Virus record (IMG/VR): IMGVR_UViG_3300033512_000032
Coordinates: 1-58,368 of that record
DNA from: a virus
Strand: one strand, 5' to 3'
Length of the DNA stretch: 58,368 nt
Part shown: one piece after another, positions 3,004 through 50,055 of the stretch
Layout: every line of letters begins with the position of its first letter
Position numbering within the stretch: position 1 is the stretch's first letter
Notes under the pieces: model-generated
What the model was told of the DNA's origin: nothing
Seen by the model: the letters and a program-made list of their open reading frames with translations, nothing else
The model's database searches: none
Made by a program: the position numbers and the translations under genes

Positions 3004-3004
3004 C

Positions 3005-12052: not shown

Positions 12053-12130
12053 CTTCGGTGTAAATAGTGCAACTTTCGTGATAAATAGATTATCTTCGAG
12101 GTGTACAAAGTTAAATTAACAGTATATAAT
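12053..12130 (+). promoter_or_regulatory. Promoter P2 (two box A copies, box B CTTCGAGGTGTACA, 17-nt spacer, TATAAT)
   Basis: CTTCG-type boxes at 12053, 12073 and 12094, about 20-21 bp apart. TGTACA at 12102..12107 and TATAAT at 12125..12130. Confidence 0.7.
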
Positions 12131-12163
12131 GTACCTAACAAAATAAAAAGAAAGGAGATTATC

Positions 12164-27741: not shown

Positions 27742-27745
27742 AAAC

Positions 27746-27780
27746 GACAGGGGTTCCTGGGAGAAGCAAGAACCCCTGTC
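27746..27780. terminator. Bidirectional terminator at the convergence of the plus and minus blocks
   Basis: GACAGGGGTTC / GAACCCCTGTC form a perfect 11-bp GC-rich stem with a 13-nt loop, flanked by an A-run upstream on the plus strand only. It lies between the two converging genes. Confidence 0.8.
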
Positions 27781-27813
27781 AACTACCCAACTAACACAGT
27801 ACAACGCGGGTTT

Positions 27814-30800
27814 TTATTCGTTAAACATTCCCATATACATGGACTTGCTTGGTTTATATAATGCTTTTGCTTGAGTCTTTAAAGTCTGATTCGTTATAAA
27901 CGGAATCTGACCAGCTTTTTTAGACTTCATAATGGCATTATTATAGTTACTTATATCATCCATGATAGACTTCATATCTTTACTCGAACCTTTATCAATT
28001 ACATAGTCACGCCACCGCTCGAGAATCTTATCATGCTTCACTTTATAAGAAGCAATTTCACGTTTAGTTTCCCAAGTACGTTCACCCATGGTTGCTTGTT
28101 CAGCAGATCTAAAACCAACTAACCGAGCAGCAGTTTCCATAGTAGATGGTATGTAGGGTTTTCCACTATCATCCCAGACCCTCTGACCTTTTGTAGTAGT
28201 AACGCCGTTAAGTTCTCTAATTGCTCTAAAAACATTTGCAAAACCAGTAGGCAATACTTTTTCTGCTGCTCTGCCGGGTTGCCCAATCTGTAGGAAATGC
28301 ATAGCATCTTCTACATCTTTATATAGGCCGCCGCCAATACCGAATAACTCATAGAAATTCCGTGGTGTTCCTACACCAATTGACATTGACCCAGATACAT
28401 CTAAATTTGCGGCACCGAGTAAACCATGTCTCCCAATACGCTCTGGAGTTTTACCTAGTTTCTTTCTTATCCAATCCCAGAAACCTTTTTCAGGATCGTC
28501 ATCAGAACCCATGGCTTTAAACATTACTCCCACAATTCCAAATAAAAGATTCTTCATAGGAATAACTGTTGCACCACCAAGGATGACAGGGGATATTAGG
28601 CCATATAAGAAAGCTTTAATGTTTCCTTTACGTACCCCCGTATCATAGAGCATTTGTAAGTAGTTGTGAGGGAACTTTCCAAATGTGTATAGTACCTGAG
28701 ATAACCGGGCAGCAGGCCCAGTTCCCTGGCCAACGGCGAGTTGTGTAGATTTACCATATATGCCATGGGCTTTATCAGACACATCGTGAGCTTTTCTAGT
28801 AACTTCACGACTATCCATATCTGGATTATTTTCTTTTATTAACCGATATGCAGCAAGCATCGTTGTTCCACGTATCCATTGCTCTGATTTACCAAATAGA
28901 TACATTGCTGTAGCCATTGTTTTTGCCCATACTTTGCCGTGTGCTCTTTGAATAGTTCCAAGAGCATCTCTAGTATATTGAGGTGAATCATAACCACGTT
29001 GTTTTATTTCATCAATGAAGGCTTGTTCACCCTTATCATCAAGTTTCTGGCCAAGCATAACTTTACGGTAGTCATTGGAAGCAATTGAAAGAGCGCCCAT
29101 GATCTTGGTCAGAGATCCTTTGCCATCTAAACCATACTGGTGGATTGCTGTAGGAACTGTGGTCGCAAGAGATAAAATGTTCACCACAGGTGACCTTAAG
29201 TTAAACCCAAGATATTTAAATGATGCAAGACTCTTGATTAAACCAACAAGTCTATCTGCTGCATCTGAATTACGCAGTTGTTCTTCAATATATTTAGTAG
29301 CGGTGTCATAGGCCCGAGGTTCTTTTGCTGGGTCTATACCACCAATAAGCTTTTTATCTTTACCAGTACCTTCATAGTGACCAGCTAAAGTTTCAAACAT
29401 ATCTTTTGCTGCTTCACCTTTAGCAACACCTGCCGCTATATTATTAATGTACCGTACGAATCTTTCATTAGGATCTGTAATATAACCACGAATAGCATCA
29501 CCAGGTTTACGAGTAACCATTGAAGCACGGAAACCGCGAACACGGATAAGGTCTGCGACTTCTTTTAAAAGTTCTTCATTAAACTTTATTTCGAGTTCTG
29601 GATCTATACCTTCAACACGTTGCATTGCAGTTTTAATTGCTTGCTGTGTATTGATAATCCGTAATGAAGCATAAACGTCTTCAGGAAGTCTTTCACGTTC
29701 AAAGATTTCTTCGACCTTGTAACCTTTACGCTCGAGTTCTCGTTTCAATAACTCTGCTGCGAAACGATTTGATTTATGATACCGCACCACTTTATCGAAG
29801 CGCTTACCTTTAACTACATATTCTCCAGTCTCACGTAAACGAGGAGCATATGTTCCTTTCAATGAACCCATACGAGCGAGAACTGCTTTAAGATTAATAG
29901 TCTCTGGTTTTCCATCTTCATTAAGAGTTACAAACTCAGGGTATTTCGGTTTTGTATTATCTTTTTCTGCTTGCTTCTCTATGCTAGCAACTAGTTTCTT
30001 CATTGGTTCCATTAGAATATCTAGTGCTACATCATATGATCTTCTGTGCGCTTTATATAGGTTAATTACATCTTGACCAACACCTTCATTCTGGAAGTGC
30101 TGCTCCCATGTAGGTATGTTGTCTCCATAACCTTTTTTCCATTCACCAGTGTCAATCTGGTCTTTCATCTTTTCAAGTTGCTTGTATTCCTTGGACGTCT
30201 CGCCTTTGACTATTTGTGTAGTAGTTAAACCTCTATGCATTAACTTCATATTTGCTTCAATGATGTCAGAAGAATTTTCCCAGGTTCTCTGCTTCATTGT
30301 TTCAGGATTAACTTCCATTTCATTAAGCAAATTGAATAGTTCAAAGTACCGATCGTGCCTGTCAATTGCTGCACGAACAATCTTCTGCATAGTAGGATGC
30401 TTGTACCACTCAGGAGACATCAGATAACGTTCTGCCCAATGCATTGCTGGTTGGTTCTTTGGTAACTGCATTACCATTGTCTTCAGCATTGCATAAGCCT
30501 GGTCATCGAATAAATTCTTCAACTCCTGTTTCGGCGTGTCAGGGGTTATGTCCTGATAGTCTACAATGCGGAATCGGCCACGAGGTTCTTCTTTTTTAGG
30601 TACTAGTTTAAGACTAGGTTTATAATCAGAATCTATATTAAGTGAAATTCCATTCTCATTAACTGATAACTCAGGTCTAGGTCCATTTCTTAATTCATTC
30701 CATGGTACTGCACCTTCAGTCTCTAATTCATTTTCCGTTTTATACTTAGCATCTTCGACCTGATACTTAGCAATATTTTTACTTGTATCTATATCCAGTA

Positions 30801-33800
30801 AGAAAGATTTGTTTTTATTAACACTTTTAAAGTTGTCTATAGCAGTAAAAATACTATTTATTGTTTTATCAGATAAAAACATTCCCAGTTCTTCTTTAAT
30901 TGCAGAAGGTTTAAATGTGCTAAATGGTAAGGCCATTATACTAGCATTTGACTTTTGCTCTATTACACCAGTACCATCAGGTCTAAGTAAAAAGATTAAG
31001 TTATTTAGTTTTGAATCACTAAAGTCAATTTCACCGTCTTCGTCTTCGTCTTCAGGAACATAATTTAATTTGCGAATATCTTCATCATTAAGTTTGATAT
31101 AGTTATTGATAGGCGACAATGCGTAGTCGACAATACTGAATCTACCGCGAGGTTCTCTAAATTTATTTAGTGGAGAATTATATACTATCTTAGGGTTAGT
31201 TACTTTTTTAAGTTGACCAATAGAGGTAACTACTCCTGATTTTACTACTTTTGTAGTTGTATAATCAGTTACGTCATAAATAATTTCTCCACTATCTGCC
31301 TCATCAAAAGCAAATGAAATAGAATCTAATTGTTCTTGCGTTAATTTATGGTGATTGGGAATTTCTACATAGGCATTTCCATCATCAAGGTTTGTTCTAA
31401 TAAGTCCTACTTCTGTAAATAATTTTCCAAGTAAATCCCCAGTAAAACTATCAAACCCACTTACTAATTGTTTATATATGTCTGGATATTTGCTTTGAAG
31501 AACCTCAATGATCCGACTATGTGGTCCACCTAAAACAACTGCTGTTCCATCAGGTAATATTAGACCAGAATCATATGGAAAGCCATATTGTTCAGTGGGA
31601 AATGATTCTTTAATCGCGTCAATTATTTTCTGAGCATAATTGGTTTGTGTAGCAGTAAGAGTTTTTTCAGTTTTACTAAACCACGGTTGACCTTTCTCAA
31701 CTACTGACTTTGCCATTTCAGGTGTGACTGTGAAGCCGGGTTGCTTAGAAAGTTCTTTACGTTCAATAGGTTGCTTAGCGTTAAAATCTCTTAAGATTTG
31801 CTCACTATTATCTTCAATCCAATCATCAAGGTCTTCTTCGCTATTAAACTGTTTACTATATTCTATACTGCCATTTGGGTTAAGCACATTTATTGTTAAA
31901 TTATCATAGTTTGATACAATATGTGTACCTTCTTCTAAATTCCAGGCTGCTGTGCCTTCACCTAAAATAGCCTTTGGCAATGGTTTATCGAGATGCATAC
32001 TTATTGTCTCGAGTCTTGCGCCCCACTGCTTGATATATTTTTCAGTCCAGTTCTTTAACTTCTCATCATAGAATGATTCCATACCTTCACCACCAATCTC
32101 GATATCGAGATTGGTATAGTGAGCAGTATGTTGTGCAGTATTAGAATTGTCATATATTGGTTCATTACTTAACATGCTACTGGGAAATAAAAGCGATGGC
32201 AATTTTTTAATTGCTCTAACAGCAAGTTCTTTACCTACATAATCAACTAACTTTTCATATGTGTCTGCTGCTTTTTGCAGTACTTGGGTGCCATCTTTTT
32301 TAGCAGTTACACCATAAGCACCAGGTAACTTTCTAATAATCACTTCATCAACTCGTTCTGCAATAATTCCTGGGTAGCGCTCTTGCTGCTGCTTACCCGT
32401 GGTCCAAGCGACGGAGTCAAAGTTATTATCAACAGCGTAGCGAATCATCCTCTTCATGAGGACCACATGCCAGTTCTCTAGGAACGGGGCAGTAGGTATT
32501 TGCTGTGAAAGTTCTCCACCTTCTACTATACTAAAATCTTGTTGTCCTAGTAACTTCTGCCAGGAGTTAAGAGCAGTTTGTGCTGCTTCTCTAGTGTTGT
32601 AGTGGCCAACTCGTGCCTCACCATTCATTACATGGTAAACTTGCTTTGTGTTAAAACCATATTTCTTTGCGTCTTGCAACCAGTCACTCTGAATTTCTTC
32701 AATGAACAAGACTCTCCGACCTTGGTCGTCGATTCGTTCATTAAACCGTATGTGCCCTAAAACATTGGCCTCGTGCCAGTGAGAGGATTGGTATAATGTT
32801 TTAGCACGTTTAGAACTGTCATTAGTTAATACGGTGACAGCATGTTCTGCTTTGGACGGATTGTTCCAACTAGATATAACTCTATCTGTATTATCATAAA
32901 CGTACCAGTTGCCATCTTCAGCACTATACTCAACTCTATATGTAACCTTAGACTTTGGCGCTTCAGTTGGGCTCCAGATCAGAAGTAATTCCCTCTGATC
33001 TTTGCCGCCGGACAGTACCCACTGATCATGTCTTAGATTACCGGAACGGCCAGTACCATCAATATAACTATCTGGATCATCATATAGTATTTCACGATCA
33101 GATTCATAGTCATCGATAATGGCATAAACCTTGTCTAACTCACCTTCAGTTAATTTGATACCAAATGGGTCAAGTACATCTATAAATGAAGGAACAGAGA
33201 ACTTGTTTACATTATCAAAACAACTGTCATATATACTTTGAAGAAACTCATCCTCAAAAGTATCATTATTTAATGCTGCCTGTAAACCATTTTGCCCTGC
33301 ATTTTCTATAGCAATAGTAAACAACCTGCCAGTAAGTTCTATTTGTATGTCACCCAAATTATCAAGTGCAGTCTCTGTAAAATAATTGATGTTAGTGTTA
33401 CTACCAACTGTAACTGTTTGCTCACTAATCCAGTTATGCAGTTCAGTTATCATGTCATCTGTAGCATTATCACCGTCTGCTTCCCATTCATTTGAAAACT
33501 CTTGTAGGTAGGTTGTTTGTTCCGGTGTTAAAATATAATTACCAAGAAGTATTTCACTGGCTGATAATTGTGGCATAGGGATTGTGGTACCAGGAGCTTT
33601 ATCACTATGCATTACTTCTTCAACTTTAATCTGATTTGCACTTAAGAAGTTAATGAAGTCTTGCTTATTAATTTTCTCTTTCCCTTTAAGATACTGCTCA
33701 ACTCCCATCCATTTTAACTCTGCCGGTTTAACAAACTTATTCAGCCAATTGACGAGTGACTGAGGTTTAGTAGGCATATCAGTTCGAGTAGTAACAGTTT

Positions 33801-36800
33801 GAAGAAGTGTAGAATAGAATGTAGGAGCATTGGTTACTTTGTCAAGACGAGGAATCTTTTCATTACTGAAGTAATCTTCAATGTTTGTACTTGCACCTAT
33901 TTCGCCTTTAAGAAACTTCTGCGAGTCAGACAGGAGTGCTTTAAGGTCACCTGTGGTAAGATTAACACCAAAACCGATACTACGCAAAATGTTATTAATC
34001 GACATTCTAACTTTTTCCCAGAATGTAGTAGTTCCCTGATTCTCTTCAGCCATGAAAGCTAGATATTCGGCGCCTGCATCTATGCGATCTTTTTCTTTGC
34101 CTACATCAAATTTATAGTCGAAGATAATCTTTTCCATTTTCTTTGTATCTTTAAATGAATCATATATACTCAAAGCAGTACTATCAAACTTTGTCCCAAG
34201 AGTCTTATATATTCCGTAATGTCCAATAGACTCGTGTAACATTGTGCGCATAACGCCAAACTTATTATGCAGTTCACTTCTGATTAAGAATACTGTATCA
34301 CCTAACTGAGCGCCGCCAATGTCATACCTATCTGAATCAGCAGCAATTTTCTCTTTCAATTCAGGAGGCAATTGATCCCTGTTATCAAGAACAATAACAA
34401 ACGGGGAATTTGGCCAGAGTTCCGAGATTCGATCAGACACGTCAGTTACTTCTTTAACTGAGAGCCCCGGACCTTTGCCTTCGGTTCTTTTAAAACCCCC
34501 TGACTTCTTAGTACGACCTACTCCAATCTCAATTGTCTTACTCAAGAAGTCTTTTACAACGGCAACATCTTGAGTGAATGATTGTTTTTCATCATAGGTC
34601 CCTGCTTCAGTTCTCTCAGTTGGTGCAAAGAAGTTATCAAGTTTTCCTGCTTTAACGCCCTTTTCCAACTGAGTAATAAACTTACTGATCATACTCAGAT
34701 CAACAGTTCCATCACTAAAGTGGCCAGCATAATTGATCATTGCTGCAAAGGCCCGAGGCATGGTGACAGGGGACATCTTCTTTAGCATCCGCATGCCTGT
34801 GTCTGGTTCAATTTCAGTATAATGATCAAGTTGTTCCTGTGCCATTACTGGAGACATATATGAAATATGCTTCGCTAATGGGTGCTCTTGCTTATTAGTT
34901 TCTTCTCCATTATCTTTTTCACCAAACCATTGAACTTTAGGTGAAGATTTCTTTGCCATTAATCGATTAGCAAGAATCTTTATATCTTGACGAGTTGAAT
35001 CAATTGCAAACTCAATATCTTCTCGTTCCTGTTCAGTAGTTGCTTTTGCTAATTCTGCCTTTAACTTTTTAAGTTCAGACTGAGATTTCTTTATCAGATC
35101 ACGTATAGTCTTCTTAACTACTTTCTTTGGTTTAGTTCCTGCTTTTGCAATAGCGCGCTGATCGGCTCTCGCTTCTCGTTCTTCTTCAGTTAATGATGCT
35201 TTATTTTGTTCTGTCTTATAGGCAGGTTCATGCTCTTCCCATTTATTTGTTTCTGGATTACGGGTCCACCTTAAAGCAAGAGTCTTAAACTTCGCTACAC
35301 CTTCGTCAGTAACGTCTTCTCCTGCCTTAAGGCGTTTTTCAACAACATTAGCCCGTAGTTTTTCAACTTTCTGTTTAGGTGTCACTTGGGTTTCGGTTTG
35401 CACTTGGCCATTAGTTTCACCTCCTTCTTTTACAATAGCTTCTTTAGGTATTACACCCATATAAACTACTGACAATTCTCCTTGTTCACCAGATTTAAAC
35501 ATACGTAACGCGGTGGATTTAGTTTTCAATAAGTCATATGGAGTTTTACTGAAATCTCTACCGTCATTTGTAACTTCAACATCATAGTTCATATCTGGAA
35601 AAAGTTTTTCAATATCTAGTTTAGAAGTATCAACTTTAATTATATTACTTGTAGTATCTTCCATAAGTGTAGCTTCATTTAAATCAGTAAAGAAGAAAGT
35701 TCCACCATTAACACCAAGACTTGGGTTAAAGCCATTTTCTTCAATATCTTTAACTGTTTCTAAATTAGTGGCGTGGTAAAGAAAAGGTTTACTTTTTATA
35801 TTTTTCTGAAACTTATTTTTAGCTGCAATAACTTCAGGATCATTTACTACTTCTCGCTCTTCTTCAGTAAGGGTAGGTCTATTTGCTTCACCTCCTTTAA
35901 CTAATTTAAGTTGTAACTTGTCAATTTGACTTTTGGTTAAGCTTTCTTTAGCCTGTGTGATTAAAGTGTCAAAGTCGCCCTCATGCTCTTCAAGGTGATC
36001 TGCTATGGTATCAAAATATACTGCTACTGGCTGTCTATTAAATTCTTCCATCCAAATATCATATTGCTTTTTAATATTTTCTTCACCAGTAGTGTAAAGT
36101 TTTTCAATTTCTTCTTGGGTGATGCCTTTAGTATCATGTAACCAGTCTTCTAGAACGTCCATTGGATATTCACCAAGGTCACTAGAGTCTAACTGTTTAG
36201 TAATTTCATCAATTATAGTTGTACTTTTAGGAACAAATTTAATTACGTTATCTTTAGCTTTTACTAATTCTTTATTTAATTCAGAATACTCTTTCTTTTT
36301 TAATGGTGGATTGTCTTCATCAAAATCTTCATTACCAGAAAAACTTATAATACTATTAACTGGTACGTTACCAAGATATATGCATTCAGTTAATTTTTGA
36401 CTATTTGCTAAGTCAAATAATTTTAACTCTAATTCAGGGTTACTTTTTATCTCAGCAGGTGAAATATAGCCTTCTTCACCTTTTAAAGTAGATTCTAAAG
36501 TAAAAGGATCTGGCAGCACTTTATTCATATCTAATAATTTTGCAATAAATTTAACAATATGTGCACCATATCCCATAGCATCAAATGGGGTAAAAAATAC
36601 TTCACCCTTGTCGTTTTTAAGTATTCCATTTTTTAATATGTCAGTTACAGGTACATTAGTGGCATGGTAAAAAATTCCTTTATCACTGAGTATGTAGTCA
36701 ATAAACTTTTTCTTTGCTATATTAAGTCTAGTAGCTACTTCTTGCGCTTTAGACTTAGTTTTAGTTTCTTCAGGTTTTGCCTGAGTAGTTTCTGTTGTCT

Positions 36801-39129
36801 TTTTAACTGGAGTTTCAGTAACTGGTTTAGTTTCATTTTGCTCCTTTATCTTTTGTTCTTTACGCTTCTCGCGTTCAATAGTTTTTGCCACTGCACTACG
36901 GCGTGAAACAGTTCGCTGATAAATTTTAGTTTTCTCATGACCTTGTTCTTCAAGGTCAGAGATAATACTATCAAGTACTGATAAACCTTCAGTTGGAGTC
37001 TTTGCTGCAAGGTATTCAGTATTACGGCGATTTACATATTCTTGAGCAGACTCTACTTTAGGTTGTGCAGGAACTAGTTCTTTACGACGAGCTACCCATT
37101 GCTTTTCACCAAGTTGAACTGGTACATATTTTTCTTCAGTGCCTTCATGCTTCATTTCTTTATAATTCTTTTGGATTGCACGCATGGCACTTACTTTATT
37201 TGTAAAAGGTTTCCCTTTATTTGTTAAATCATCAGTGTTAGAGTTCTCGTATGTAGGTGCCACTGGAACTGCTTGCTGTACAGGGGTTTGTGTAGGTCTC
37301 TGCTCCTGTTTGCCTTGTCCAGTGATAATGAGTGGTTGGCGTCTGTTACCTGCGACTACCTGCCCGAGGTTCTGGGACATTTGAGTCATTGCAATGGGTG
37401 CGCCAACCCATTCATTTTGGGCAAGTTCCATAGGTGCATGTGTCTCAGATAAACCTTGCTTCTTTAAGATTGCTTTAACTGAACCTTTATTAGAGAACAA
37501 CTCTCCCTTACTTGTGAAGACTAGTTGATTCTTTAAATTTTCGGGAATATTTTGTATTATACTTTTACCAGGCGTTAATTTAATAGTGTCACTAGTGGAG
37601 TCCTGTGGAGCCTCTTTTTCAATAGGATTACCGCTTTTGTCTAAAATTACACTCGGTTGAATATTAGGTGTCTGTGCACCTGGGTCCTTGGCACCCATAA
37701 TAAATGATGCCATGTCATTTGCTTTTTCTTCACTGAAACCTTTTTCAATAAACTTATCAAATAACTGTTGACGTAGTTCAAGGCCCATGGTCTGTCTAAC
37801 AACTTTATCATCAGCTGGTTTCTGCTCACCTTCAGGAATAACTTCAGGCTGATCAACTTTCGGTTGACCTCGCTCCATGAACTTATTAGTGTCAATATCA
37901 TTTTGCTTCGCGACTTCTTGATCTGCGAGTACGCCTTCTAAAGGTTTCATATCAGTGAACTTTTTATCAAGTTCTATTGGTTCACCTTCAAGAAGTTTAT
38001 ACTGTGCTATCTCACCCCATTTTTGAGCAACATTTGTATTATTAACTTTGTCAGTTTTTTGTAGTTCAGTGTAAATAGTTCTCATTGCATCGAAACGAGT
38101 ATCAAAATCCGTTTCCGGATTTTCTAACGCTTTAATAATGTTTGCTCGTTTCTTTACATCAACACCATGGAACAGACCACCAGTTATTGCTACTGATGTT
38201 ATTGTAGGGATAATTGAATCTACCGCTGCTTGCCAAGGTGTCTGACTCTGTGGCAAACCCATATCTATATTACTTTGGGTTTGTAAATAATTCTGGGTCA
38301 TTTCAGTAGCTACTTCAGCCGGTTGTGCTTTTGCTTGCGCTACTAAATAGTTTTTAGCACCACCTTTCCAACCCTGCTTTAGAATACTTCTAATAGATTC
38401 TTTGACTGGTTGTGTAGCAAGTTTACCCAAACCAAATGTGACACCTTCAATAACGTTAGATGCTGCTTCAAAACCACCTTCAATTAAGGCCTGTTTAAAA
38501 GCTTCATTCTTATATACATCTGCAGGTATAGGATTTTCTGGGTTCTCAGCATTATGTTTAAGCACATCACGGACTACTTGATCATATTGTGCGAGGCCAA
38601 AGATTGTGCCACCGCCACCAGCGAAACCAATAATAGCACCAGCAACTGGCATACCTACAGCAGAACCAACTGCTGCACCAGCGATAGCACCTGGAAGACC
38701 AGACCCAAGGGAAGGCACAATCATTTCTGCGCCTTCACGAACTTGACCACGAAGGTACGATTCGTCTTTTGCTGGTCCATAGACGTAAGGATATTTTTTC
38801 TCTAGTTTTTCTTTATTGACTACTAGCCAATTTGCAAATTGACCGACATAGTCTTCAGTATCACCAAAGTGCTTCTCATCTAGGTTCTCTCCGCCAGCAT
38901 GACCACCATAAGCTAATCTTGCTGCAGCTAACGTTCCTACTAAATTAGTAGCACCTACAACTGGAACTAATAAGGCATCCATAAATGGAGACCGTGCAAT
39001 ACCAGTAGACTGTTGTAGCTGTTGAGGTTGCTCAACTGCAGTTGATAGACCATAAAGGTCAGTTTGGTCGGTGGAAGTTAAATCAGTAGAAACGTTAAGA
39101 TCGGTTAAACCGTAAAGATCATCAGACAT
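27814..39129 (-). CDS. Giant virion-associated polyvalent protein (about 3,771 aa)
   Basis: Uninterrupted 11.3-kb ORF. The track starts at a TTG at 39168, but the ATG at 39129 follows GAAAGGAAAAAT. It is the last gene of the late operon. Contents: a Gly-rich hydrophobic N-terminus, two ART-like modules, a duplicated EPRGRF peptide and multiple C-terminal hydrophobic helices. Confidence 0.85.
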   Translation of the reverse strand: MSDDLYGLTDLNVSTDLTSTDQTDLYGLSTAVEQPQQLQQSTGIARSPFMDALLVPVVGATNLVGTLAAARLAYGGHAGGENLDEKHFGDTEDYVGQFANWLVVNKEKLEKKYPYVYGPAKDESYLRGQVREGAEMIVPSLGSGLPGAIAGAAVGSAVGMPVAGAIIGFAGGGGTIFGLAQYDQVVRDVLKHNAENPENPIPADVYKNEAFKQALIEGGFEAASNVIEGVTFGLGKLATQPVKESIRSILKQGWKGGAKNYLVAQAKAQPAEVATEMTQNYLQTQSNIDMGLPQSQTPWQAAVDSIIPTITSVAITGGLFHGVDVKKRANIIKALENPETDFDTRFDAMRTIYTELQKTDKVNNTNVAQKWGEIAQYKLLEGEPIELDKKFTDMKPLEGVLADQEVAKQNDIDTNKFMERGQPKVDQPEVIPEGEQKPADDKVVRQTMGLELRQQLFDKFIEKGFSEEKANDMASFIMGAKDPGAQTPNIQPSVILDKSGNPIEKEAPQDSTSDTIKLTPGKSIIQNIPENLKNQLVFTSKGELFSNKGSVKAILKKQGLSETHAPMELAQNEWVGAPIAMTQMSQNLGQVVAGNRRQPLIITGQGKQEQRPTQTPVQQAVPVAPTYENSNTDDLTNKGKPFTNKVSAMRAIQKNYKEMKHEGTEEKYVPVQLGEKQWVARRKELVPAQPKVESAQEYVNRRNTEYLAAKTPTEGLSVLDSIISDLEEQGHEKTKIYQRTVSRRSAVAKTIEREKRKEQKIKEQNETKPVTETPVKKTTETTQAKPEETKTKSKAQEVATRLNIAKKKFIDYILSDKGIFYHATNVPVTDILKNGILKNDKGEVFFTPFDAMGYGAHIVKFIAKLLDMNKVLPDPFTLESTLKGEEGYISPAEIKSNPELELKLFDLANSQKLTECIYLGNVPVNSIISFSGNEDFDEDNPPLKKKEYSELNKELVKAKDNVIKFVPKSTTIIDEITKQLDSSDLGEYPMDVLEDWLHDTKGITQEEIEKLYTTGEENIKKQYDIWMEEFNRQPVAVYFDTIADHLEEHEGDFDTLITQAKESLTKSQIDKLQLKLVKGGEANRPTLTEEEREVVNDPEVIAAKNKFQKNIKSKPFLYHATNLETVKDIEENGFNPSLGVNGGTFFFTDLNEATLMEDTTSNIIKVDTSKLDIEKLFPDMNYDVEVTNDGRDFSKTPYDLLKTKSTALRMFKSGEQGELSVVYMGVIPKEAIVKEGGETNGQVQTETQVTPKQKVEKLRANVVEKRLKAGEDVTDEGVAKFKTLALRWTRNPETNKWEEHEPAYKTEQNKASLTEEEREARADQRAIAKAGTKPKKVVKKTIRDLIKKSQSELKKLKAELAKATTEQEREDIEFAIDSTRQDIKILANRLMAKKSSPKVQWFGEKDNGEETNKQEHPLAKHISYMSPVMAQEQLDHYTEIEPDTGMRMLKKMSPVTMPRAFAAMINYAGHFSDGTVDLSMISKFITQLEKGVKAGKLDNFFAPTERTEAGTYDEKQSFTQDVAVVKDFLSKTIEIGVGRTKKSGGFKRTEGKGPGLSVKEVTDVSDRISELWPNSPFVIVLDNRDQLPPELKEKIAADSDRYDIGGAQLGDTVFLIRSELHNKFGVMRTMLHESIGHYGIYKTLGTKFDSTALSIYDSFKDTKKMEKIIFDYKFDVGKEKDRIDAGAEYLAFMAEENQGTTTFWEKVRMSINNILRSIGFGVNLTTGDLKALLSDSQKFLKGEIGASTNIEDYFSNEKIPRLDKVTNAPTFYSTLLQTVTTRTDMPTKPQSLVNWLNKFVKPAELKWMGVEQYLKGKEKINKQDFINFLSANQIKVEEVMHSDKAPGTTIPMPQLSASEILLGNYILTPEQTTYLQEFSNEWEADGDNATDDMITELHNWISEQTVTVGSNTNINYFTETALDNLGDIQIELTGRLFTIAIENAGQNGLQAALNNDTFEDEFLQSIYDSCFDNVNKFSVPSFIDVLDPFGIKLTEGELDKVYAIIDDYESDREILYDDPDSYIDGTGRSGNLRHDQWVLSGGKDQRELLLIWSPTEAPKSKVTYRVEYSAEDGNWYVYDNTDRVISSWNNPSKAEHAVTVLTNDSSKRAKTLYQSSHWHEANVLGHIRFNERIDDQGRRVLFIEEIQSDWLQDAKKYGFNTKQVYHVMNGEARVGHYNTREAAQTALNSWQKLLGQQDFSIVEGGELSQQIPTAPFLENWHVVLMKRMIRYAVDNNFDSVAWTTGKQQQERYPGIIAERVDEVIIRKLPGAYGVTAKKDGTQVLQKAADTYEKLVDYVGKELAVRAIKKLPSLLFPSSMLSNEPIYDNSNTAQHTAHYTNLDIEIGGEGMESFYDEKLKNWTEKYIKQWGARLETISMHLDKPLPKAILGEGTAAWNLEEGTHIVSNYDNLTINVLNPNGSIEYSKQFNSEEDLDDWIEDNSEQILRDFNAKQPIERKELSKQPGFTVTPEMAKSVVEKGQPWFSKTEKTLTATQTNYAQKIIDAIKESFPTEQYGFPYDSGLILPDGTAVVLGGPHSRIIEVLQSKYPDIYKQLVSGFDSFTGDLLGKLFTEVGLIRTNLDDGNAYVEIPNHHKLTQEQLDSISFAFDEADSGEIIYDVTDYTTTKVVKSGVVTSIGQLKKVTNPKIVYNSPLNKFREPRGRFSIVDYALSPINNYIKLNDEDIRKLNYVPEDEDEDGEIDFSDSKLNNLIFLLRPDGTGVIEQKSNASIMALPFSTFKPSAIKEELGMFLSDKTINSIFTAIDNFKSVNKNKSFLLDIDTSKNIAKYQVEDAKYKTENELETEGAVPWNELRNGPRPELSVNENGISLNIDSDYKPSLKLVPKKEEPRGRFRIVDYQDITPDTPKQELKNLFDDQAYAMLKTMVMQLPKNQPAMHWAERYLMSPEWYKHPTMQKIVRAAIDRHDRYFELFNLLNEMEVNPETMKQRTWENSSDIIEANMKLMHRGLTTTQIVKGETSKEYKQLEKMKDQIDTGEWKKGYGDNIPTWEQHFQNEGVGQDVINLYKAHRRSYDVALDILMEPMKKLVASIEKQAEKDNTKPKYPEFVTLNEDGKPETINLKAVLARMGSLKGTYAPRLRETGEYVVKGKRFDKVVRYHKSNRFAAELLKRELERKGYKVEEIFERERLPEDVYASLRIINTQQAIKTAMQRVEGIDPELEIKFNEELLKEVADLIRVRGFRASMVTRKPGDAIRGYITDPNERFVRYINNIAAGVAKGEAAKDMFETLAGHYEGTGKDKKLIGGIDPAKEPRAYDTATKYIEEQLRNSDAADRLVGLIKSLASFKYLGFNLRSPVVNILSLATTVPTAIHQYGLDGKGSLTKIMGALSIASNDYRKVMLGQKLDDKGEQAFIDEIKQRGYDSPQYTRDALGTIQRAHGKVWAKTMATAMYLFGKSEQWIRGTTMLAAYRLIKENNPDMDSREVTRKAHDVSDKAHGIYGKSTQLAVGQGTGPAARLSQVLYTFGKFPHNYLQMLYDTGVRKGNIKAFLYGLISPVILGGATVIPMKNLLFGIVGVMFKAMGSDDDPEKGFWDWIRKKLGKTPERIGRHGLLGAANLDVSGSMSIGVGTPRNFYELFGIGGGLYKDVEDAMHFLQIGQPGRAAEKVLPTGFANVFRAIRELNGVTTTKGQRVWDDSGKPYIPSTMETAARLVGFRSAEQATMGERTWETKREIASYKVKHDKILERWRDYVIDKGSSKDMKSIMDDISNYNNAIMKSKKAGQIPFITNQTLKTQAKALYKPSKSMYMGMFNE

Positions 39130-39183
39130 ATTTTTCCTTTCAAGAGGTTCCTCATTGCGAGACCCCAATAAATAAAGTTGCCA

Positions 39184-40728
39184 CTAATTCGGTGAATCGT
39201 AACCCCAAGCATTTAAACCAACACTATTATCTTTAACAACTTGCTTAATATTTTTTGGTATACTTCTTTTGTTAGCTTCCACTTGTTTAGTAAGTAACGT
39301 CTTAGTCTGTAACAAAAGATTGCGGCCCTCTTCCCATGCTTTCGGATCTTCATTCTTTAGTGACTGTGCTGCCTGCTGCCGCATACTATTGATATTTGAA
39401 ATGAACCCCGGATCTTTTATATTTTTCAAGATCCCCTGTACTTCATTATCAAGCATACCAAATTCTTTACGTGTTTGGACAGGGGCTTTAAAGGTGTCAG
39501 GGAATGTCTTACCTAAGCGTTTAGCAGTTCCGTCATACTGATAAGCCTGCTGCTTTTGCCTTATTATTTCTTGCACTTTTGCATTTTTAACTTTTTCATA
39601 GTCATCTTGTGAAAGAGTTATATTTTCATTAGTATTGGGGTCAATTGTGTGACGTAAACCATCGGGTCCAACTGGCCATGCTTTATCATACGCTGCACCG
39701 ATTACTGTTGGGTCAAGTTTAGTGCTAACATCAGTGTGCTCAGAACTTAAGGTAGCCTGTTTGTTTGTACTATTTGCAACGTCACGTTGTGCGGCGACTT
39801 GCATACTAATACCTTGCAAATACCTTGCGTCAGTCGCTGCTTGTGACTCAGAAGTCTGAACGGCTTTACCAACATCAACATACTCTTTACTCGGTAAGAA
39901 CTCACCTTCTTTAATTCCAGTGACTTGTGACTGGCGACCCGTGACCTGGCGAGCTTTAGTAAGATAATCGTAAGTAGCACCTTGCTCTTTTAAAGCATTA
40001 TCGATTGCTGTAGTGTCACCATCTAACGATTTAAGAATGCCTTGTGCCCATTGTAAATATTTTTTATTTTCAAGATACAGGGGCCTAGGGTCTTTCTGAT
40101 AGCGGGCGTAATCATTAACATCTTTTTGATAAGTGTCAAAAAGAGTTTTTTTATTCGGGTCACTCTGAGAGTCAATTTTAAGTTGATCTAACTCCGCTTG
40201 AGAAGCAAATGCACCAGCACTCTGTAAACCAAGGGCTTGCTTTGATTGTAGCACTTTATCAGTTAATTGCGCCATTGGATCTTTTGTTGATGTAAGTGCT
40301 ACAGTAATAGGTTGCGCTACATAACCTACTTCACGCATTGACATAGGCTTCTTATCTTTATTAAAGACTAACTGTTGATTAGGGTCTGGATTATTTTCAT
40401 CAGTAACACCTATATTAGCCATCTTCATAATGCCGTGTATTTTTTCTAATGCAGAAGCATCAATAGGTTTACCACCAGTCACCATATTTCCTATTAATGA
40501 TAGCGTTGCAGGTCGGTTCAAGAAGTCTTCTTTCGCTTTAATCTTATTAAGCTTTAGTTTATCTTCTTGTAGTTTGACATCTTTAAGTTCGAGGTCCTTA
40601 GAGCGAGTTTGTTCCTCACCCATAAACTTTGCAAGGCCCAATGTAGCATTATAGTTATCCTGACCTACACCACGAATAGTGCTAGTTAAGCCATTCCAAC
40701 TTGCTGATAAATCCTCGTTTGCTGCCAT
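39184..40728 (-). CDS. Putative internal virion (ejection) protein (514 aa)
   Basis: Long helical, Q/K/D-rich ORF between the GNAT-like gene and the giant gene. GAGGT RBS. Function is inferred from position only. Confidence 0.5.
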   Translation of the reverse strand: MAANEDLSASWNGLTSTIRGVGQDNYNATLGLAKFMGEEQTRSKDLELKDVKLQEDKLKLNKIKAKEDFLNRPATLSLIGNMVTGGKPIDASALEKIHGIMKMANIGVTDENNPDPNQQLVFNKDKKPMSMREVGYVAQPITVALTSTKDPMAQLTDKVLQSKQALGLQSAGAFASQAELDQLKIDSQSDPNKKTLFDTYQKDVNDYARYQKDPRPLYLENKKYLQWAQGILKSLDGDTTAIDNALKEQGATYDYLTKARQVTGRQSQVTGIKEGEFLPSKEYVDVGKAVQTSESQAATDARYLQGISMQVAAQRDVANSTNKQATLSSEHTDVSTKLDPTVIGAAYDKAWPVGPDGLRHTIDPNTNENITLSQDDYEKVKNAKVQEIIRQKQQAYQYDGTAKRLGKTFPDTFKAPVQTRKEFGMLDNEVQGILKNIKDPGFISNINSMRQQAAQSLKNEDPKAWEEGRNLLLQTKTLLTKQVEANKRSIPKNIKQVVKDNSVGLNAWGYDSPN

Positions 40729-40744
40729 AGTTAATATACCTCAT

Positions 40745-41170
40745 TTAATCCTTAATAAAGCCAGTGTCAGAATCTTGCAATGCCAGTATATATGTTGTTG
40801 CATTAGTCTCGGCTACTTGCATCCCGTATTTCGTCAGTTTATCACCCCATGATTTTGTTTTCGTCATTGAGTAAATAAATGCACAGCCGTTAGACTTAGC
40901 TACATCTACCAGAGCATCAAATAATGTTTGTAAAGCCTTGTCACTTTCTTCCTGTGGCCGCGATCTATCTTTTAATGCCCAGTCGATAAAACCCATTCTT
41001 CTAGGTTCAGAATACATTGCCAAAAATGCAATAAAATCACCACTGGTGGTTTCAGCTACTAGCGCTGTATGAGGAATGGCATTTAATGGGCAAGGCAACC
41101 AGCCATAACTATGCCATAACTGAGACATTATCTTATAATGTTTGGCCGGGTTAAATGCGACAATATTCAT
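40745..41170 (-). CDS. GNAT-like acetyltransferase (putative)
   Basis: 141 aa with alternating beta/alpha segments. LVAETTSGDFIAFLAMY...GFIDWAL...LFDALVDVAKSNGCAFIY...KYGM fits the GNAT core pattern. No profile search was done. Confidence 0.4.
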   Translation of the reverse strand: MNIVAFNPAKHYKIMSQLWHSYGWLPCPLNAIPHTALVAETTSGDFIAFLAMYSEPRRMGFIDWALKDRSRPQEESDKALQTLFDALVDVAKSNGCAFIYSMTKTKSWGDKLTKYGMQVAETNATTYILALQDSDTGFIKD

Positions 41171-42728
41171 TTAAGTAATCCAATCTCTGTTGTGCAGTCA
41201 TATTTTCACTATCAGTGACTTCACCATAATCAGCGAACCGAATGCCATTAACCATGAGAGTATGCTTTTCGTTATTAATGATGTAAACTTTAACTAACAA
41301 ATCAGAATCAACAATAGCTGCATATTTACTGTTCTTTACTCGCTTCCACTCGCCATCTTCATAAACAGCATGAGAACCGGTTACGCCAATTCCTTCATAG
41401 TTGAATATGTCTTTTGCTAGTACAATACCAATCCCTGTGACCATACCACCTTCAGCACAGTCTTCCATGAGGCCAACATCTTCCACCGGTTTCGTTGTAC
41501 CATCAGACATTGTAATAGGTGTTCCGGCAAGAAAACAGAATAGATTACCAATTGCACCTAATGGATTAAGTACTGCATTGGCTACTTGCCCAGCAGTACT
41601 TGGTTCATCTGCATCAGAAAATGGATTAAGAATTGCATTTGTTGCCGTATTCAAGGTTTCTTTATTAAAAGCGTCATCATCTCCAAAGGCATAATCTATT
41701 GGTGCCATTACCGTTCTTTCAAGAGCTGCCATATTTTTAGCTGCTCTTCCTGCGACAGTACCATCTGGTGCTAGTAATGTTCCGGGCGCTAATGAAGCCA
41801 TGACTCCTGCTGTGCCAGGACTATCAACAGTTCTTTGTTGCTTTGTCTTTTCTTCATACGGGATACCAGCCCCGCCCCACTGTCCTCTTGCCATTTCTGC
41901 AGCTGCTATATATGCTATGGCATTTCCGGCAACTTTTGCGGTACTTGATAGTGCTCCTGTTTTCCCTGCACCATAAGCAGCACCTTCACCAACATAAGTT
42001 CCAGTCCCAGCAGTACCTGATATACCAGGGGTTACCGCATTGGCCCCATAAGCAGCACCTTCACTAGCTAGTGCGTTTGTTCCATAAGCAGCACCTTCAC
42101 CAATATAAGTTCCAGTGGCTGCAGTGCCTGACAGACCTGCATTTGAAGCTGTACTAGCTGCAAGACCTCCTACTTCAGGTGCCACTACAGATGCTGCATC
42201 AGCAACTAATGCTGGTGTAGATGGTTTTGTCGCAAGAGTAGCTTCGCCAAGTGAAGTTGTTACAGGGTTTGTGGAAGTAGAAGAATTTAGACCAAGAGCA
42301 TCTTTAATTCCAGTTAAACCCTTAGAGATTAAACCTGGTTCTTGAGTAACACCCGAAGCACTAGCCAATTTCTCTGCAAGTAAACTATTTTTATAGGCGC
42401 CATAGGCACTAACACCAGTTCCAAGCATTCCAAGCATGTTGCCAGTAGTAGCATTTGACTTTGCTGCATCTGCTTCTTGAGCAGATAGAGCTGTCATATC
42501 ATTATAGTATTTAAGCTGATTTTCTTTCTCTTGTTTATCTACATTTAATGCTTCTTGCTGAATAGCCACACCAGCGTTTGCATTTTTTAAAACGTCTTGA
42601 TTATATTCTGCATCTTCAGTTGCAGCATAGGCAGCAGGTAAAGAAGCAGCTTTTGCTTTTACTATAGCGCCATAATCTAAACCATAATAAGGTTTTTTAG
42701 TTAGAGCTGATAGTTGAGTTGTACCCAT
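41151..42728 (-). CDS. Internal virion protein with C-terminal Hint (bacterial intein-like) domain
   Basis: Gly/Ala/Thr-rich N-terminal part with internal repeats GT(A/G)TGTY(I/V)GEGAAYG. The C-terminal module starts CFLAGTPITMSDGTTKPVEDV and contains VTGSHAVY, as Hint domains do. Confidence 0.65.
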   Translation of the reverse strand: MGTTQLSALTKKPYYGLDYGAIVKAKAASLPAAYAATEDAEYNQDVLKNANAGVAIQQEALNVDKQEKENQLKYYNDMTALSAQEADAAKSNATTGNMLGMLGTGVSAYGAYKNSLLAEKLASASGVTQEPGLISKGLTGIKDALGLNSSTSTNPVTTSLGEATLATKPSTPALVADAASVVAPEVGGLAASTASNAGLSGTAATGTYIGEGAAYGTNALASEGAAYGANAVTPGISGTAGTGTYVGEGAAYGAGKTGALSSTAKVAGNAIAYIAAAEMARGQWGGAGIPYEEKTKQQRTVDSPGTAGVMASLAPGTLLAPDGTVAGRAAKNMAALERTVMAPIDYAFGDDDAFNKETLNTATNAILNPFSDADEPSTAGQVANAVLNPLGAIGNLFCFLAGTPITMSDGTTKPVEDVGLMEDCAEGGMVTGIGIVLAKDIFNYEGIGVTGSHAVYEDGEWKRVKNSKYAAIVDSDLLVKVYIINNEKHTLMVNGIRFADYGEVTDSENMTAQQRLDYLNEYCRI

Positions 42729-50048: not shown

Positions 50049-50055
50049 AATTATA

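What the first reader, a model, noticed from the sequence alone, without database searches (positions are those of the whole stretch)
27814..39168. An 11.3-kb single ORF (about one fifth of the genome) sits where N4-like phages carry their virion RNA polymerase, but shows no recognisable polymerase motifs
Seen in the sequence:
- One uninterrupted minus-strand ORF of 3,771-3,784 codons.
- It is the last gene of the late operon and abuts the bidirectional terminator at the convergence point.
- The whole genome layout (early genes rightward, late genes leftward, divergent control region) and the capsid protein type both resemble N4-like podoviruses, where this slot holds the 3,500-aa virion RNA polymerase.

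Reading the protein, I could not find a convincing T7-like motif A/B/C set or a two-barrel DxDGD motif. What I did see:
- A Gly-rich hydrophobic N-terminus.
- Long charged linkers.
- Two ART-like modules.
- A block with SSHWHEANVLGHIRF...RRVLFIEEIQSDW at 32681-32800.
- A duplicated EPRGRF peptide.
- A C-terminal 400 aa with several hydrophobic helices (about 28500-29300).

This mosaic fits the polyvalent-protein concept: multi-effector proteins packaged in heads and injected with the DNA. No RNA polymerase is visible anywhere else in the genome.
Basis: partly seen in the sequence, partly recalled or inferred. Interest (0 to 1): 0.8.

Follow-up and report, generated by a model that had tools for sequence, protein, structure and literature searches.

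The report
Giant injected polyvalent protein, not polymerase

Summary
**Observation.** Confirmed. One uninterrupted minus-strand ORF spans 27814-39168. The likely start is the ATG at 39129, giving 3,771 aa. It is 19.4% of a circular 58.2-kb podovirus genome, the last gene of the late operon, and is followed by a 15-bp terminator hairpin.

**Not a polymerase.** Direct, profile and profile-profile comparisons with N4 gp50 and with all PDB chains found no polymerase similarity. No RNAP is encoded elsewhere in the genome.

**Anatomy.**
- A conserved N domain (aa ~30-790) with Gly-rich hydrophobic segments.
- A conserved C domain (aa ~2848-3771) that passes the NCBIfam cutoff for the PLxRFG 'tail-700' domain.
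- Swappable modules between them:
  - an HExxxH…E metallopeptidase-like module;
  - an enzyme-like ~450-aa module (SSHWHE…IEEIQSDW). The query covering these two modules had more than 10,000 relatives, mostly in 2,000-7,000-aa proteins, with no Pfam or PDB match;
  - three lineage-specific insertions, one holding the two 'ART-like' paralogues.

**Precedent.** Capsid relatives (Rollin, vB_Pun_Y3) and F116-like and Lastavirus phages carry comparable giants in the same slot. Giants sharing the peptidase module were found in virions by proteomics (phi24B gp47; JC1 gp69, close homologue of Bcep22 gp75).

**Limits.** The ART assignment could not be verified. Packaging is inferred, not shown.

**Verdict.** The polyvalent reading is partly supported. 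This is a new member of a known kind, of moderate interest.

The parts
27814..39129 (-). Complete CDS of the giant protein: 3,771 aa from the ATG at 39129, stop codon at 27814-27816. The ORF stays open upstream to a TTG at 39168.
39135..39139 (-). Shine-Dalgarno-like AAGGA, 5 nt upstream of the ATG
   Evidence: read from the sequence
36760..39042 (-). Conserved N domain (aa ~30-790). It is shared at 42-53% identity with the orthologues L009, P0005, P0062 and P0002. Part of it (aa ~110-400) also occurs in other giant proteins.
38587..38985 (-). Gly-rich hydrophobic segments (aa 49-70 and 148-180), candidate membrane-inserting hairpins
   Evidence: weak Pfam RTX N-terminal hit, E 0.046
36334..36717 (-). 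'ART-like' paralogue 1 (aa 805-932; FYHATN…VFFT). It lies inside lineage-specific insertion 1 (aa ~790-1230).
   Evidence: ART identity not confirmed.
35419..35823 (-). 'ART-like' paralogue 2 (aa 1103-1237; LYHATN…FFFT)
   Evidence: 30% identity to paralogue 1, E 1e-10; ART-PolyVal HMM -1.4 bits; hhalign probability 17.8%
34510..35436 (-). Conserved middle region (aa ~1232-1540), found only in the close orthologues; function unknown
33850..34497 (-). M1: metallopeptidase-like module (aa ~1545-1760). It carries H1632-E1633-x3-H1637 and E1688, conserved across 17 family members.
   Evidence: The profile hits phi24B gp47 (E 1e-16) and Bcep22 gp75 (E 7e-7). An HEXXXH clade of polyvalent-protein MPTases is described in PMC5512222.
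33580..33837 (-). 'FYS' module (aa ~1765-1850). In most relatives it directly precedes M2.
   Evidence: Only a weak pairwise hit to the LPD5 region of vB_Pun_Y3 (E 0.008), not confirmed.
33040..33579 (-). Lineage-specific insertion 2 (aa ~1851-2030), acidic, with no relatives found
31645..33039 (-). M2: enzyme-like module (aa ~2031-2495). It contains SSHWHE…IEEIQSDW, WTTGxQQxxRY and GGEGMxxFYD.
   Evidence: AF2 pLDDT 74. BFVD Foldseek matches to fragments of viral polyvalent proteins, E down to 7e-20. No PDB or Pfam match.
30589..31581 (-). Lineage-specific insertion 3 (aa ~2517-2847). Its last ~190 aa are bracketed by a 36-nt imperfect direct repeat (31120-31155 and 30553-30588) encoding EPRGRF(S/R)IVDY.
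27817..30588 (-). Conserved C domain (aa 2848-3771), 54-67% identical in the orthologues
27925..29853 (-). PLxRFG 'tail-700' domain (NCBIfam NF032893), aa 3093-3735
   Evidence: 112.8 bits, cutoff 100, E 1.7e-32. Same domain in Rollin, and in Epa33, ZX1 and L009.
28510..28620 (-). Hydrophobic helical hairpin inside the tail domain (aa 3504-3540)
27745..27781 (-). Terminator hairpin (15 bp, 8 G-C pairs) followed by TTTTT on the minus strand, at the convergence point with the rightward helicase gene

Best explanation
**What it is.** The gene encodes a virion-delivered polyvalent protein of the PLxRFG-tailed kind.

**Shown**
- It is a single 3,771-aa product of the last late gene.
- It is built from a conserved N domain and a conserved C domain that flank interchangeable internal modules.
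- It has no detectable polymerase.

**Inferred mechanism**
1. A few copies are packed into the head during assembly.
2. At infection the almost cysteine-free, linker-rich chain is threaded domain by domain through the portal and short tail.
3. The Gly-rich hydrophobic segments of the N domain and the hydrophobic hairpin of the PLxRFG tail engage the envelope. They help form or use the ejection conduit.
4. The HExxxH…E metallopeptidase-like module (M1) cuts the chain, or a host target.
5. The internal modules then act early in the cell. These are the widespread enzyme-like M2 unit and the lineage-specific inserts, including the two YHAT…FFT paralogues.
6. Early transcription is left to the host RNA polymerase.
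For: **Family membership**
- The PLxRFG tail scores above the curated cutoff.
- The same tail ends giant last-structural-gene proteins in:
  - the closest capsid relative, Rollin;
  - F116-like Epa33, annotated 'structural protein 5', 3,799 aa;
  - Klebsiella ZX1, 3,867 aa.

**Widespread central modules**
- The query covering M1 and M2 (aa 1420-2600) had 10,241 relatives at E<=1e-3 among 50%-identity representatives. The 150 best hits have a median length of 2,915 aa.
- Relatives include Dfl-JY45, with four Pfam ART-PolyVal domains.
- They also include BFVD fragments named ART-PolyVal, LPD or LT_GEWL proteins.

**Carrier-plus-cargo layout**
- Orthologues keep the N and C domains at 42-67% identity but differ in the modules between them.

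**Slot and virion evidence**
- vB_Pun_Y3 has ddrB-ParB, LPD5, LPD1, ART-PolyVal and a methyltransferase in the same slot.
- The M1 profile hits phi24B gp47 and Bcep22 gp75. phi24B gp47 was detected in purified virions (bioRxiv 10.64898/2026.04.10.717836). For the Bcep22 type, the detected protein is JC1 gp69, 79% identical to gp75 (PMC9144972).
- Iyer et al. describe HEXXXH MPTases as the hub of polyvalent proteins (PMC5512222).

**Other points**
- Only 2 Cys in 3,771 aa.
- No RNAP similarity.
- No RNAP elsewhere in the genome.
Against: - There are no virion data for this phage or for any PLxRFG-tailed protein examined here. 'Structural protein' is only an annotation.
- The virion-proven giants share only M1 with this protein and lack the PLxRFG tail.
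- No module has a verified biochemical activity:
  - Pfam, PHROGs and PDB give nothing for about 83% of the chain;
  - the ART-like modules fail HMM and profile tests, and the AF2 model is unusable;
  - M2 has no significant PDB structural neighbour.
- The membrane role of the hydrophobic segments is inference from composition alone.
Confidence: 0.7

Rival explanations
1. It is a highly diverged N4-type virion RNA polymerase. It would be ejected to transcribe early genes, with its polymerase motifs eroded beyond recognition.
For: - Same position (last late gene) and similar size as N4 gp50.
- The capsid is of the N4-gp56 type.
- The portal is weakly similar to N4 gp59.
- N4 gp50 also carries an MPTase domain (PMC5512222).
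- A relative's giant protein is annotated 'putative vRNAP'.
Against: - BLASTP against gp50: best E 0.61.
- Orthologue profile against gp50: probability 0.6%.
- Tail profile against 10 vRNAP C-termini: probability 0.65%.
- phmmer and three profiles against the PDB returned no polymerase chain; N4 mini-vRNAP entries such as 2PO4 and 3C2P are cited in the papers read, but I did not check which polymerase entries this copy holds.
- All stretches longer than 500 aa are accounted for by non-polymerase families. The unexplained inserts are shorter than 450 aa.
- The StenR_269 annotation rests only on size, lack of Cys and helical content (PMC10747016).
Confidence: 0.03
2. It is a purely structural internal-core or ejectosome protein. 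It would act as a conduit or head-filling scaffold with no enzymatic effector role, and the conserved polar motifs would serve assembly.
For: - Hydrophobic segments at both ends.
- No recognised catalytic domain in Pfam or the PDB.
- The phi24B authors propose a conduit role for gp47.
- N4 gp51 and gp52 form membrane channels next to gp50.
Against: - M1 keeps an invariant HExxxH…E set.
- M2 keeps about 25 invariant polar or aromatic residues across relatives at 30% identity. This pattern is typical of enzymes.
- Internal modules are gained and lost between orthologues while N and C are kept. This fits cargo rather than scaffold.
Confidence: 0.17
3. It is an external adhesin or fibre-like virion appendage, or a non-virion late protein.
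For: It is a very large late gene next to tail genes.
Against: - No fibre, beta-helix or collagen-like families were found. The recognisable tail-fibre gene is elsewhere, at 49125-50090.
- The protein shares modules with head-packaged giants.
- It has a PLxRFG tail.
- The chain is linker-rich, with only 2 Cys.
Confidence: 0.03

Closest known systems
PLxRFG domain-containing giant proteins (NCBIfam NF032893): Pseudomonas phage Rollin 2,184 aa; F116-like Epa33 'structural protein 5' 3,799 aa; Klebsiella phage vB_KpnP_ZX1 3,867 aa
   Same: - C-terminal ~680-aa tail domain scoring above the curated cutoff.
- Giant size.
- Last gene of the structural operon of a podovirus.
   Different: - The tail is only 22-25% identical. 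It scores 113 bits here against 366-791 bits in those phages.
- The upstream modules differ; for example Rollin has LPD39.
- Function and virion location of this family are not documented in anything I could read.
Polyvalent proteins of phages (Iyer, Burroughs, Anand, de Souza, Aravind 2017, PMC5512222); the same-slot example is Pseudoalteromonas phage vB_Pun_Y3, 3,421 aa
   Same: - Many unrelated modules in one giant polypeptide.
- Late, virion gene neighbourhood.
- HEXXXH-type MPTase hub.
- Same slot in a phage whose capsid is 42% identical.
   Different: - None of the Pfam PolyVal, LPD or ART models matches this protein.
- Only weak pairwise similarity to vB_Pun_Y3, E 0.008-0.012.
Virion-proven giants: Stx phage phi24B gp47 (2,811 aa) and JC1 gp69 (4,515 aa), whose close homologue is Bcep22 gp75 (4,602 aa)
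   Same: - Last structural gene.
- About 20% of the genome (JC1 gp69: 22.1%).
- They contain the M1 metallopeptidase-like module.
- phi24B gp47 and JC1 gp69 were detected in purified virions.
   Different: - No PLxRFG tail.
- No M2 hit.
- The Bcep22-type protein is annotated DarB-like, and phi24B gp47 carries LPD5, LPD1 and LPD38 domains. None of these is detectable here.
N4 gp50 virion RNA polymerase (Schitoviridae)
   Same: - Positional analogue at the end of the late operon, about 3,500 aa.
- Beads-on-a-string organisation with low-complexity linkers.
- Contains an MPTase domain.
- Ejected through a ~35 Å channel (PMC13434306, PMC5512222).
   Different: - No RNAP module and no detectable homology in any part.
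- The phage has no N4-type RNAPII genes either.
P1 DarB / T4 Alt (head-packaged anti-restriction and ADP-ribosylating proteins)
   Same: The concept of enzymes packed in the head and injected with the DNA. Several tblastn hits to the C domain are annotated 'DarB-like'.
   Different: - No methyltransferase or helicase domain.
- No verified ART domain.

Membership tests
N4-like virion RNA polymerase | Central T7-like single-subunit RNAP module homologous to mini-vRNAP | tested here: not met
   - BLASTP best E 0.61.
- hhalign probability 0.6%.
- phmmer and profiles against PDB chains: no polymerase chain returned.
N4-like virion RNA polymerase | C-terminal (encapsidation) region homologous among Schitoviridae | tested here: not met
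   - Profile of 20 PLxRFG tails against profile of 10 vRNAP C-termini: probability 0.65%.
- NCBIfam tail-700 does not hit the gp50 C-terminal half.
N4-like virion RNA polymerase | Last gene of the late virion operon, about 3,500 aa | tested here: met
N4-like virion RNA polymerase | Rifampicin-resistant early transcription from hairpin promoters | not testable with these tools
   Needs an experiment; promoter hairpins were not searched.
crAss-like gp66 two-barrel RNAP | DxDGD metal-binding motif and double-psi beta-barrels | tested here: not met
   - No D.DGD motif.
- No PDB sequence or profile match.
- The fold was tested only for aa 2005-2500.
PLxRFG domain-containing protein (NCBIfam NF032893, tail-700) | Score at or above the curated cutoff (100 bits) over the ~681-position model | tested here: met
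   112.8 bits, E 1.7e-32, model positions 2-646, aa 3093-3735
Polyvalent proteins (Iyer et al. 2017) | Several unrelated globular modules in one polypeptide, shared combinatorially with other giant proteins | tested here: met
   Module map and census; orthologues differ in internal modules
Polyvalent proteins (Iyer et al. 2017) | Zincin-like MPTase hub domain (HEXXH or HEXXXH plus a downstream Glu) | tested here: inconclusive
   - The motif set H1632, E1633, H1637, E1688 is conserved.
- The profile hits phi24B gp47 and Bcep22 gp75.
- But there is no Pfam MPTase-PolyVal hit and no PDB hit, and the fold was not modelled.
Polyvalent proteins (Iyer et al. 2017) | Encoded among virion genes of a phage or the transfer genes of a conjugative element | tested here: met
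Polyvalent proteins (Iyer et al. 2017) | Delivered into the host with the DNA | not testable with these tools
   Only by analogy to phi24B gp47, JC1 gp69 and N4 gp50.
ART-PolyVal (PF18760) | Significant match to the family profile, with the H-Y-E type triad | tested here: not met
   - No Pfam hit, even on tiles at E<=5.
- A jackhmmer profile of 125 domains misses the protein.
- hmmsearch scores -1.4 bits.
- hhalign probability is 17.8%, over the YHxT…FFT half only.
- The catalytic Glu is not alignable between the two copies.
LPD5 (PF18799) | Match to the family profile | tested here: not met
   - No Pfam hit.
- jackhmmer from the vB_Pun_Y3 LPD5 does not reach the protein.
- Only one pairwise hit, E 0.008.
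P1 DarB-like antirestriction protein | N6-adenine methyltransferase plus SF2 helicase domains | tested here: not met
   No such Pfam or NCBIfam hits

The most novel reading that the evidence does not exclude
**Carrier and cargo.** The conserved pair forms a dedicated carrier that takes interchangeable cargo through a podovirus tail into the cell.
- One half is the N domain, with Gly-rich hydrophobic hairpins.
- The other half is the PLxRFG tail, with its own hydrophobic hairpin.

**A possible new enzyme family.** The commonest cargo, the FYS+M2 unit, may be an undescribed enzyme family.
- It has thousands of relatives, about 25 invariant polar residues, and no Pfam or PDB match.
- Its motifs, as I recall them from memory, resemble two known types:
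  - D…ExQ…QxxxY, as in a RecB/BglII-like nuclease core;
  - xGGxGM, as in an actin-fold adenosine loop.

**Wider implication.** On this reading N4 vRNAP is just one cargo solution among many for the same slot.
Probability: 0.3. Interest if true: 0.55.

Novelty: new member of a known kind. Interest (0 to 1): 0.35.

Why it matters
**Why it matters**
- It shows that a fifth of this phage's genome is spent on one injected multi-module protein rather than on a virion polymerase. It also cautions against 'putative vRNAP' labels given on size alone, as in StenR_269.
- It gives a clean natural example of conserved N and C carrier domains with swapped internal modules.
- It points to two abundant modules that current domain libraries miss and that would be worth biochemical study: the HExxxH peptidase-like M1 and the M2 unit.

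**Limit**
- It does not open a new category. Polyvalent, virion-delivered giants in this slot are already documented.

Tried and rejected
**Domain-library searches that found nothing**
- Pfam on the whole protein and on ten 450-aa tiles.
- PHROGs.
- PDB by sequence.

**Similarity searches that found nothing**
- megablast against phages: no match.
- tblastn of aa 1-1350: no match.

**The search for homologous proteins**
- The whole protein timed out.
- aa 1301-2300 and aa 801-1250 gave no hits, probably because the word index is swamped by the charged linkers.

**ART hypothesis**
- jackhmmer, hmmsearch and hhalign were all non-significant.
- AF2 on the two-paralogue alignment gave pLDDT 39 and is unusable.
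- No relatives of that insert exist in IMG/VR or in JGI metagenome contigs.

**LPD5 link**
- Not reproduced.

**M2 function**
- Profiles of the whole module and of its first subdomain against the PDB found nothing.
- Foldseek against the PDB gave no hit at E<=1e-3. The weak top of the list was dominated by MreB, FtsA, PPX and DnaK, with TM about 0.1. This is a lead only.

**M1**
- Pfam on 17 family members and a PDB profile search found nothing.

**Homology of the scaffold to N4 gp50**
- Rejected.
- The M1 HMM does align just upstream of the gp50 HELVH motif, but without significance (E 0.049).

**Neighbouring genes**
- The neighbours (514, 141 and 525 aa) show no similarity to N4 gp51/gp52 or to the neighbours of other giants.

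**Source record**
- An exact-sequence look-up of the protein in public assemblies found it not on record.

Full report
**1.

The ORF list gives one minus-strand ORF at 27814..39168, 3,784 codons from a TTG. It translates without a stop. The first ATG is at 39129 and has AAGGA five bases upstream, so the product is most likely 3,771 aa. At 39.2% GC, 3,784 stop-free codons have a chance probability of about 1e-109.

The first and last 141 nt of the window are identical. The window is therefore a circular assembly of 58,227 bp, and the gene takes 19.4% of it.

The gene ends the leftward late operon:
- large terminase at 3008-4330;
- portal at 973-3003;
- capsid at 56625-57632;
- tail and fibre genes.

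It converges on the rightward replication genes: DNA polymerase A, primase and two helicases. A 15-bp hairpin lies at 27745-27781. The T-run follows it only on the minus strand, so it is a terminator for the giant gene. Bidirectional action is not shown.

One correction applies: the metal-binding motif is HESIGH, that is HExxxH.

**2. What kind of phage this is**

The capsid is closest to these phages:

| Phage | Capsid identity |
|---|---|
| Pseudomonas phage Rollin | 44% |
| Pseudoalteromonas phage vB_Pun_Y3 (annotated as an N4-gp56-family capsid) | 42% |
| StenR_269 | 40% |
| Xanthomonas DES1 | 37% |

Similarity to N4 itself is limited to the capsid family and a weak portal hit, E 8e-5. The phage is not a schitovirus.

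No ORF outside the giant could hold an RNA polymerase:
- the larger early proteins are replication enzymes or small unknowns;
- the larger late proteins give tail or no hits.

**3. It is not a polymerase**

| Test | Result |
|---|---|
| BLASTP against N4 gp50 | best E 0.61 |
| BLASTP against the StenR_269 'putative vRNAP' | best E 1.3 |
| phmmer of the whole protein against all PDB chains | two antibody chains at E>0.2 |
| Profile of the five-member orthologue family against the PDB | one irrelevant hit, E 1.9 |
| hhalign of that profile against gp50 | probability 0.6% |
| Profile of 20 PLxRFG tails against 10 Schitoviridae vRNAP C-termini | probability 0.65% |

- No polymerase chain was returned by any PDB search. 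N4 mini-vRNAP entries such as 2PO4 and 3C2P are cited in the papers I read, but I did not check which polymerase entries this PDB copy holds.
- No DxDGD motif is present.
- The stretches not assigned to a non-polymerase family are three inserts shorter than 450 aa. From general knowledge, that is too short for a single-subunit or two-barrel polymerase.
- The StenR_269 label rests only on size, lack of cysteines and helical content (PMC10747016).

**4. Anatomy**

A full HMMER scan of 1.84 billion representatives with aa 1420-2600 found:
- 10,241 relatives at E<=1e-3;
- 1,609 relatives at E<=1e-30.

The 150 best hits have a median length of 2,915 aa. Mapping the whole protein onto those 150, plus phage proteins, gives the following map:

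| Region (aa) | Description |
|---|---|
| ~30-790 | N domain |
| ~790-1230 | Insertion 1, with two paralogous ~130-aa modules |
| 1232-1540 | Region found only in close orthologues |
| 1545-1760 | M1 |
| 1765-1850 | Small 'FYS' module |
| 1851-2030 | Insertion 2 |
| 2031-2495 | M2 |
| 2517-2847 | Insertion 3 |
| 2848-3771 | C domain |

The close orthologues keep the N and C domains but differ in between:
- They are an IMG/VR contig ORF of 2,868 aa and P0005, P0062 and P0002.
- N is 42-53% identical and C is 54-67% identical.
- None has insertion 1.
- P0005 and P0062 lack FYS+M2.
- L009 lacks all three insertions.

The last ~190 aa of insertion 3 are bracketed by a 36-nt imperfect direct repeat encoding EPRGRF(S/R)IVDY. 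This looks like a recombination scar. The layout is therefore a conserved carrier (N plus C) with exchangeable internal modules.

**5. The modules**

*C domain*
- NCBIfam NF032893 (PLxRFG 'tail-700') matches aa 3093-3735 at 112.8 bits, above the cutoff of 100.
- The same domain ends the 2,184-aa slot protein of Rollin, at 366 bits.
- It also ends Epa33 'structural protein 5' and the ZX1 'PLxRFG protein'.
- A hydrophobic hairpin lies at aa 3504-3540.

*M1*
- Across 17 members, E1633, H1637 and E1688 are invariant and H1632 nearly so. The pattern is HExxxH plus a Glu 51 residues downstream.
- Pfam and the PDB give nothing.
- Iyer et al. describe exactly such an HEXXXH clade of zincin-like MPTases as the hub of polyvalent proteins (PMC5512222).
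- The M1 profile hits phi24B gp47 (E 1e-16) and Bcep22 gp75 (E 7e-7).
- From memory, the motif and spacing also recall HEXXGH…EEXRAE of peptidase family M49. This is a lead only.

*FYS+M2*
- This is the most widespread unit, present in about 130 of the 150 best hits.
- About 25 residues are invariant at roughly 30% identity. They include H..E.N…H.R…R.D..G…F.EE.QSDW, P.APF..W, WTxG..Q..RY and GGxGM..FYD.
- The 91 relatives returned with annotations have almost no Pfam domain.
- An AF2 model built from 72 sequences has pLDDT 74 and pTM 0.64.
- Foldseek finds 22 BFVD matches at E<=1e-3, the best at 7e-20. All are fragments of giant uncultured-phage proteins, some named ART-PolyVal, LPD or LT_GEWL proteins.
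- Nothing in the PDB reaches E<=1e-3.
- The weak top of the PDB list is dominated by actin-fold ATPases with TM about 0.1. I treat this as a lead only. I treat the D…ExQ…QxxxY pattern, a nuclease-like motif recalled from memory, the same way.

*'ART-like' pair*
- The two modules are real paralogues: 30% identity, E 1e-10.
- They share YHATN and G..FFT.
- A profile of 125 ART-PolyVal domains does not find them.
- The best HMM alignment scores -1.4 bits.
- hhalign gives 17.8% probability over the first half only.
- The AF2 model is unusable.
- No relatives exist in the three collections searched.
- The ART reading remains a motif-level guess.

**6. Context from other phages and the literature**

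The same slot in vB_Pun_Y3 holds a 3,421-aa protein with ddrB-ParB, LPD5, LPD1, ART-PolyVal and methyltransferase domains. It is followed by a 1,027-aa ART-PolyVal protein.

Giant last-structural-gene proteins have been detected in purified virions:
- phi24B gp47, proposed to be an ejection protein;
- JC1 gp69, a Bcep22-like protein taking 22.1% of its genome, with 51 unique peptides.

Both phi24B gp47 and Bcep22 gp75, the close homologue of JC1 gp69, share M1 with the present protein. Both lack the PLxRFG tail.

N4 gp50 is itself counted among polyvalent proteins and carries an MPTase. It is ejected as loosely connected domains through a ~35 Å channel.

**7. Most likely mechanism**

*Shown*
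- The modular build.
- The family links.
- The absence of a polymerase.

*Inferred*
- Head packaging.
- Threading of the nearly Cys-free (2 of 3,771), linker-rich chain through the tail.
- Envelope engagement by the hydrophobic segments of N and C.
- Processing by M1.
- Early action of M2 and the lineage-specific inserts.
- Early transcription carried out by the host polymerase.

Confidence in the overall reading is about 0.7. Confidence is much lower for any single module's activity.

**8. Novelty**

The kind is known. It is covered by the polyvalent proteins of Iyer et al. 2017, by the NCBIfam PLxRFG family, and by virion-proven examples in podoviruses.

What is particular here:
- Current domain libraries miss about 83% of the chain.
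- That missed portion includes two very abundant modules.
- The orthologue set shows the carrier-plus-cargo logic unusually clearly.

I rate it a new member of a known kind, with interest 0.35.

Noticed in passing
window 1-141 and 58228-58368: The first and last 141 nt are identical. The window is a circular assembly of a complete 58,227-bp genome, and the late operon runs across the junction.
   Followed up: yes
window 31120-31155 and 30553-30588 (-): A 36-nt imperfect direct repeat encoding EPRGRF(S/R)IVDY brackets a lineage-specific ~190-aa insertion just before the conserved C domain. It looks like a recombination scar from module insertion.
   Followed up: partly
L006:14439-15395 versus L006:13439-14410 (GenBank OR779980, vB_Pun_Y3): The first 319 aa of the 1,027-aa 'ADP-ribosyltransferase' ORF are 100% identical to the last 319 aa of the preceding 3,421-aa ORF. 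This is either a ~957-bp direct repeat or an assembly artefact in the public record.
   Followed up: no
L007:22776-29585 (StenR_269) and L005:32798-39265 (DES1): The 'putative virion-associated RNA polymerase' of StenR_269 shows no similarity to N4 gp50 and no Pfam or NCBIfam hit. Its C-terminal third is homologous to the C-terminus of the vB_Pun_Y3 1,027-aa protein and to DES1. The vRNAP label seems unfounded.
   Followed up: partly
window ~37374-37527 and ~37074-37236 (-) (aa ~535-585 and ~632-685): Two copies of a ~50-aa motif lie in the linker-rich part of the N region: F[TS]xK…A[IL]xK…P[MV]xL…WV[GA]. This may be a small repeated binding domain.
   Followed up: no
window 12101-13153 (+), 14018-14758 (+), 15733-16557 (+), 16572-17255 (+): The early region encodes a DUF932 protein (Pfam E 1.6e-33), a weak methyltransferase-like protein, a thymidylate synthase and a weak HD-domain protein. 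This may point to nucleotide or DNA modification.
   Followed up: no
window 39187-40728, 40748-41170, 41154-42728 (-): Three genes directly upstream of the giant (514, 141 and 525 aa) have no family hits. Their sizes and order resemble N4 gp51/gp52 and JC1 gp67/gp68, which precede those phages' giants, so they are candidate partner ejection proteins. No sequence similarity was found.
   Followed up: partly
window 50059-53265 (-): The 1,069-aa tail-region protein has a weak hit to the ubiquitin-E1 FCCH domain (E 1.8e-6, below the Pfam cutoff). The same stretch (aa 458-523) hits a PHROG 'major tail protein' family.
   Followed up: no
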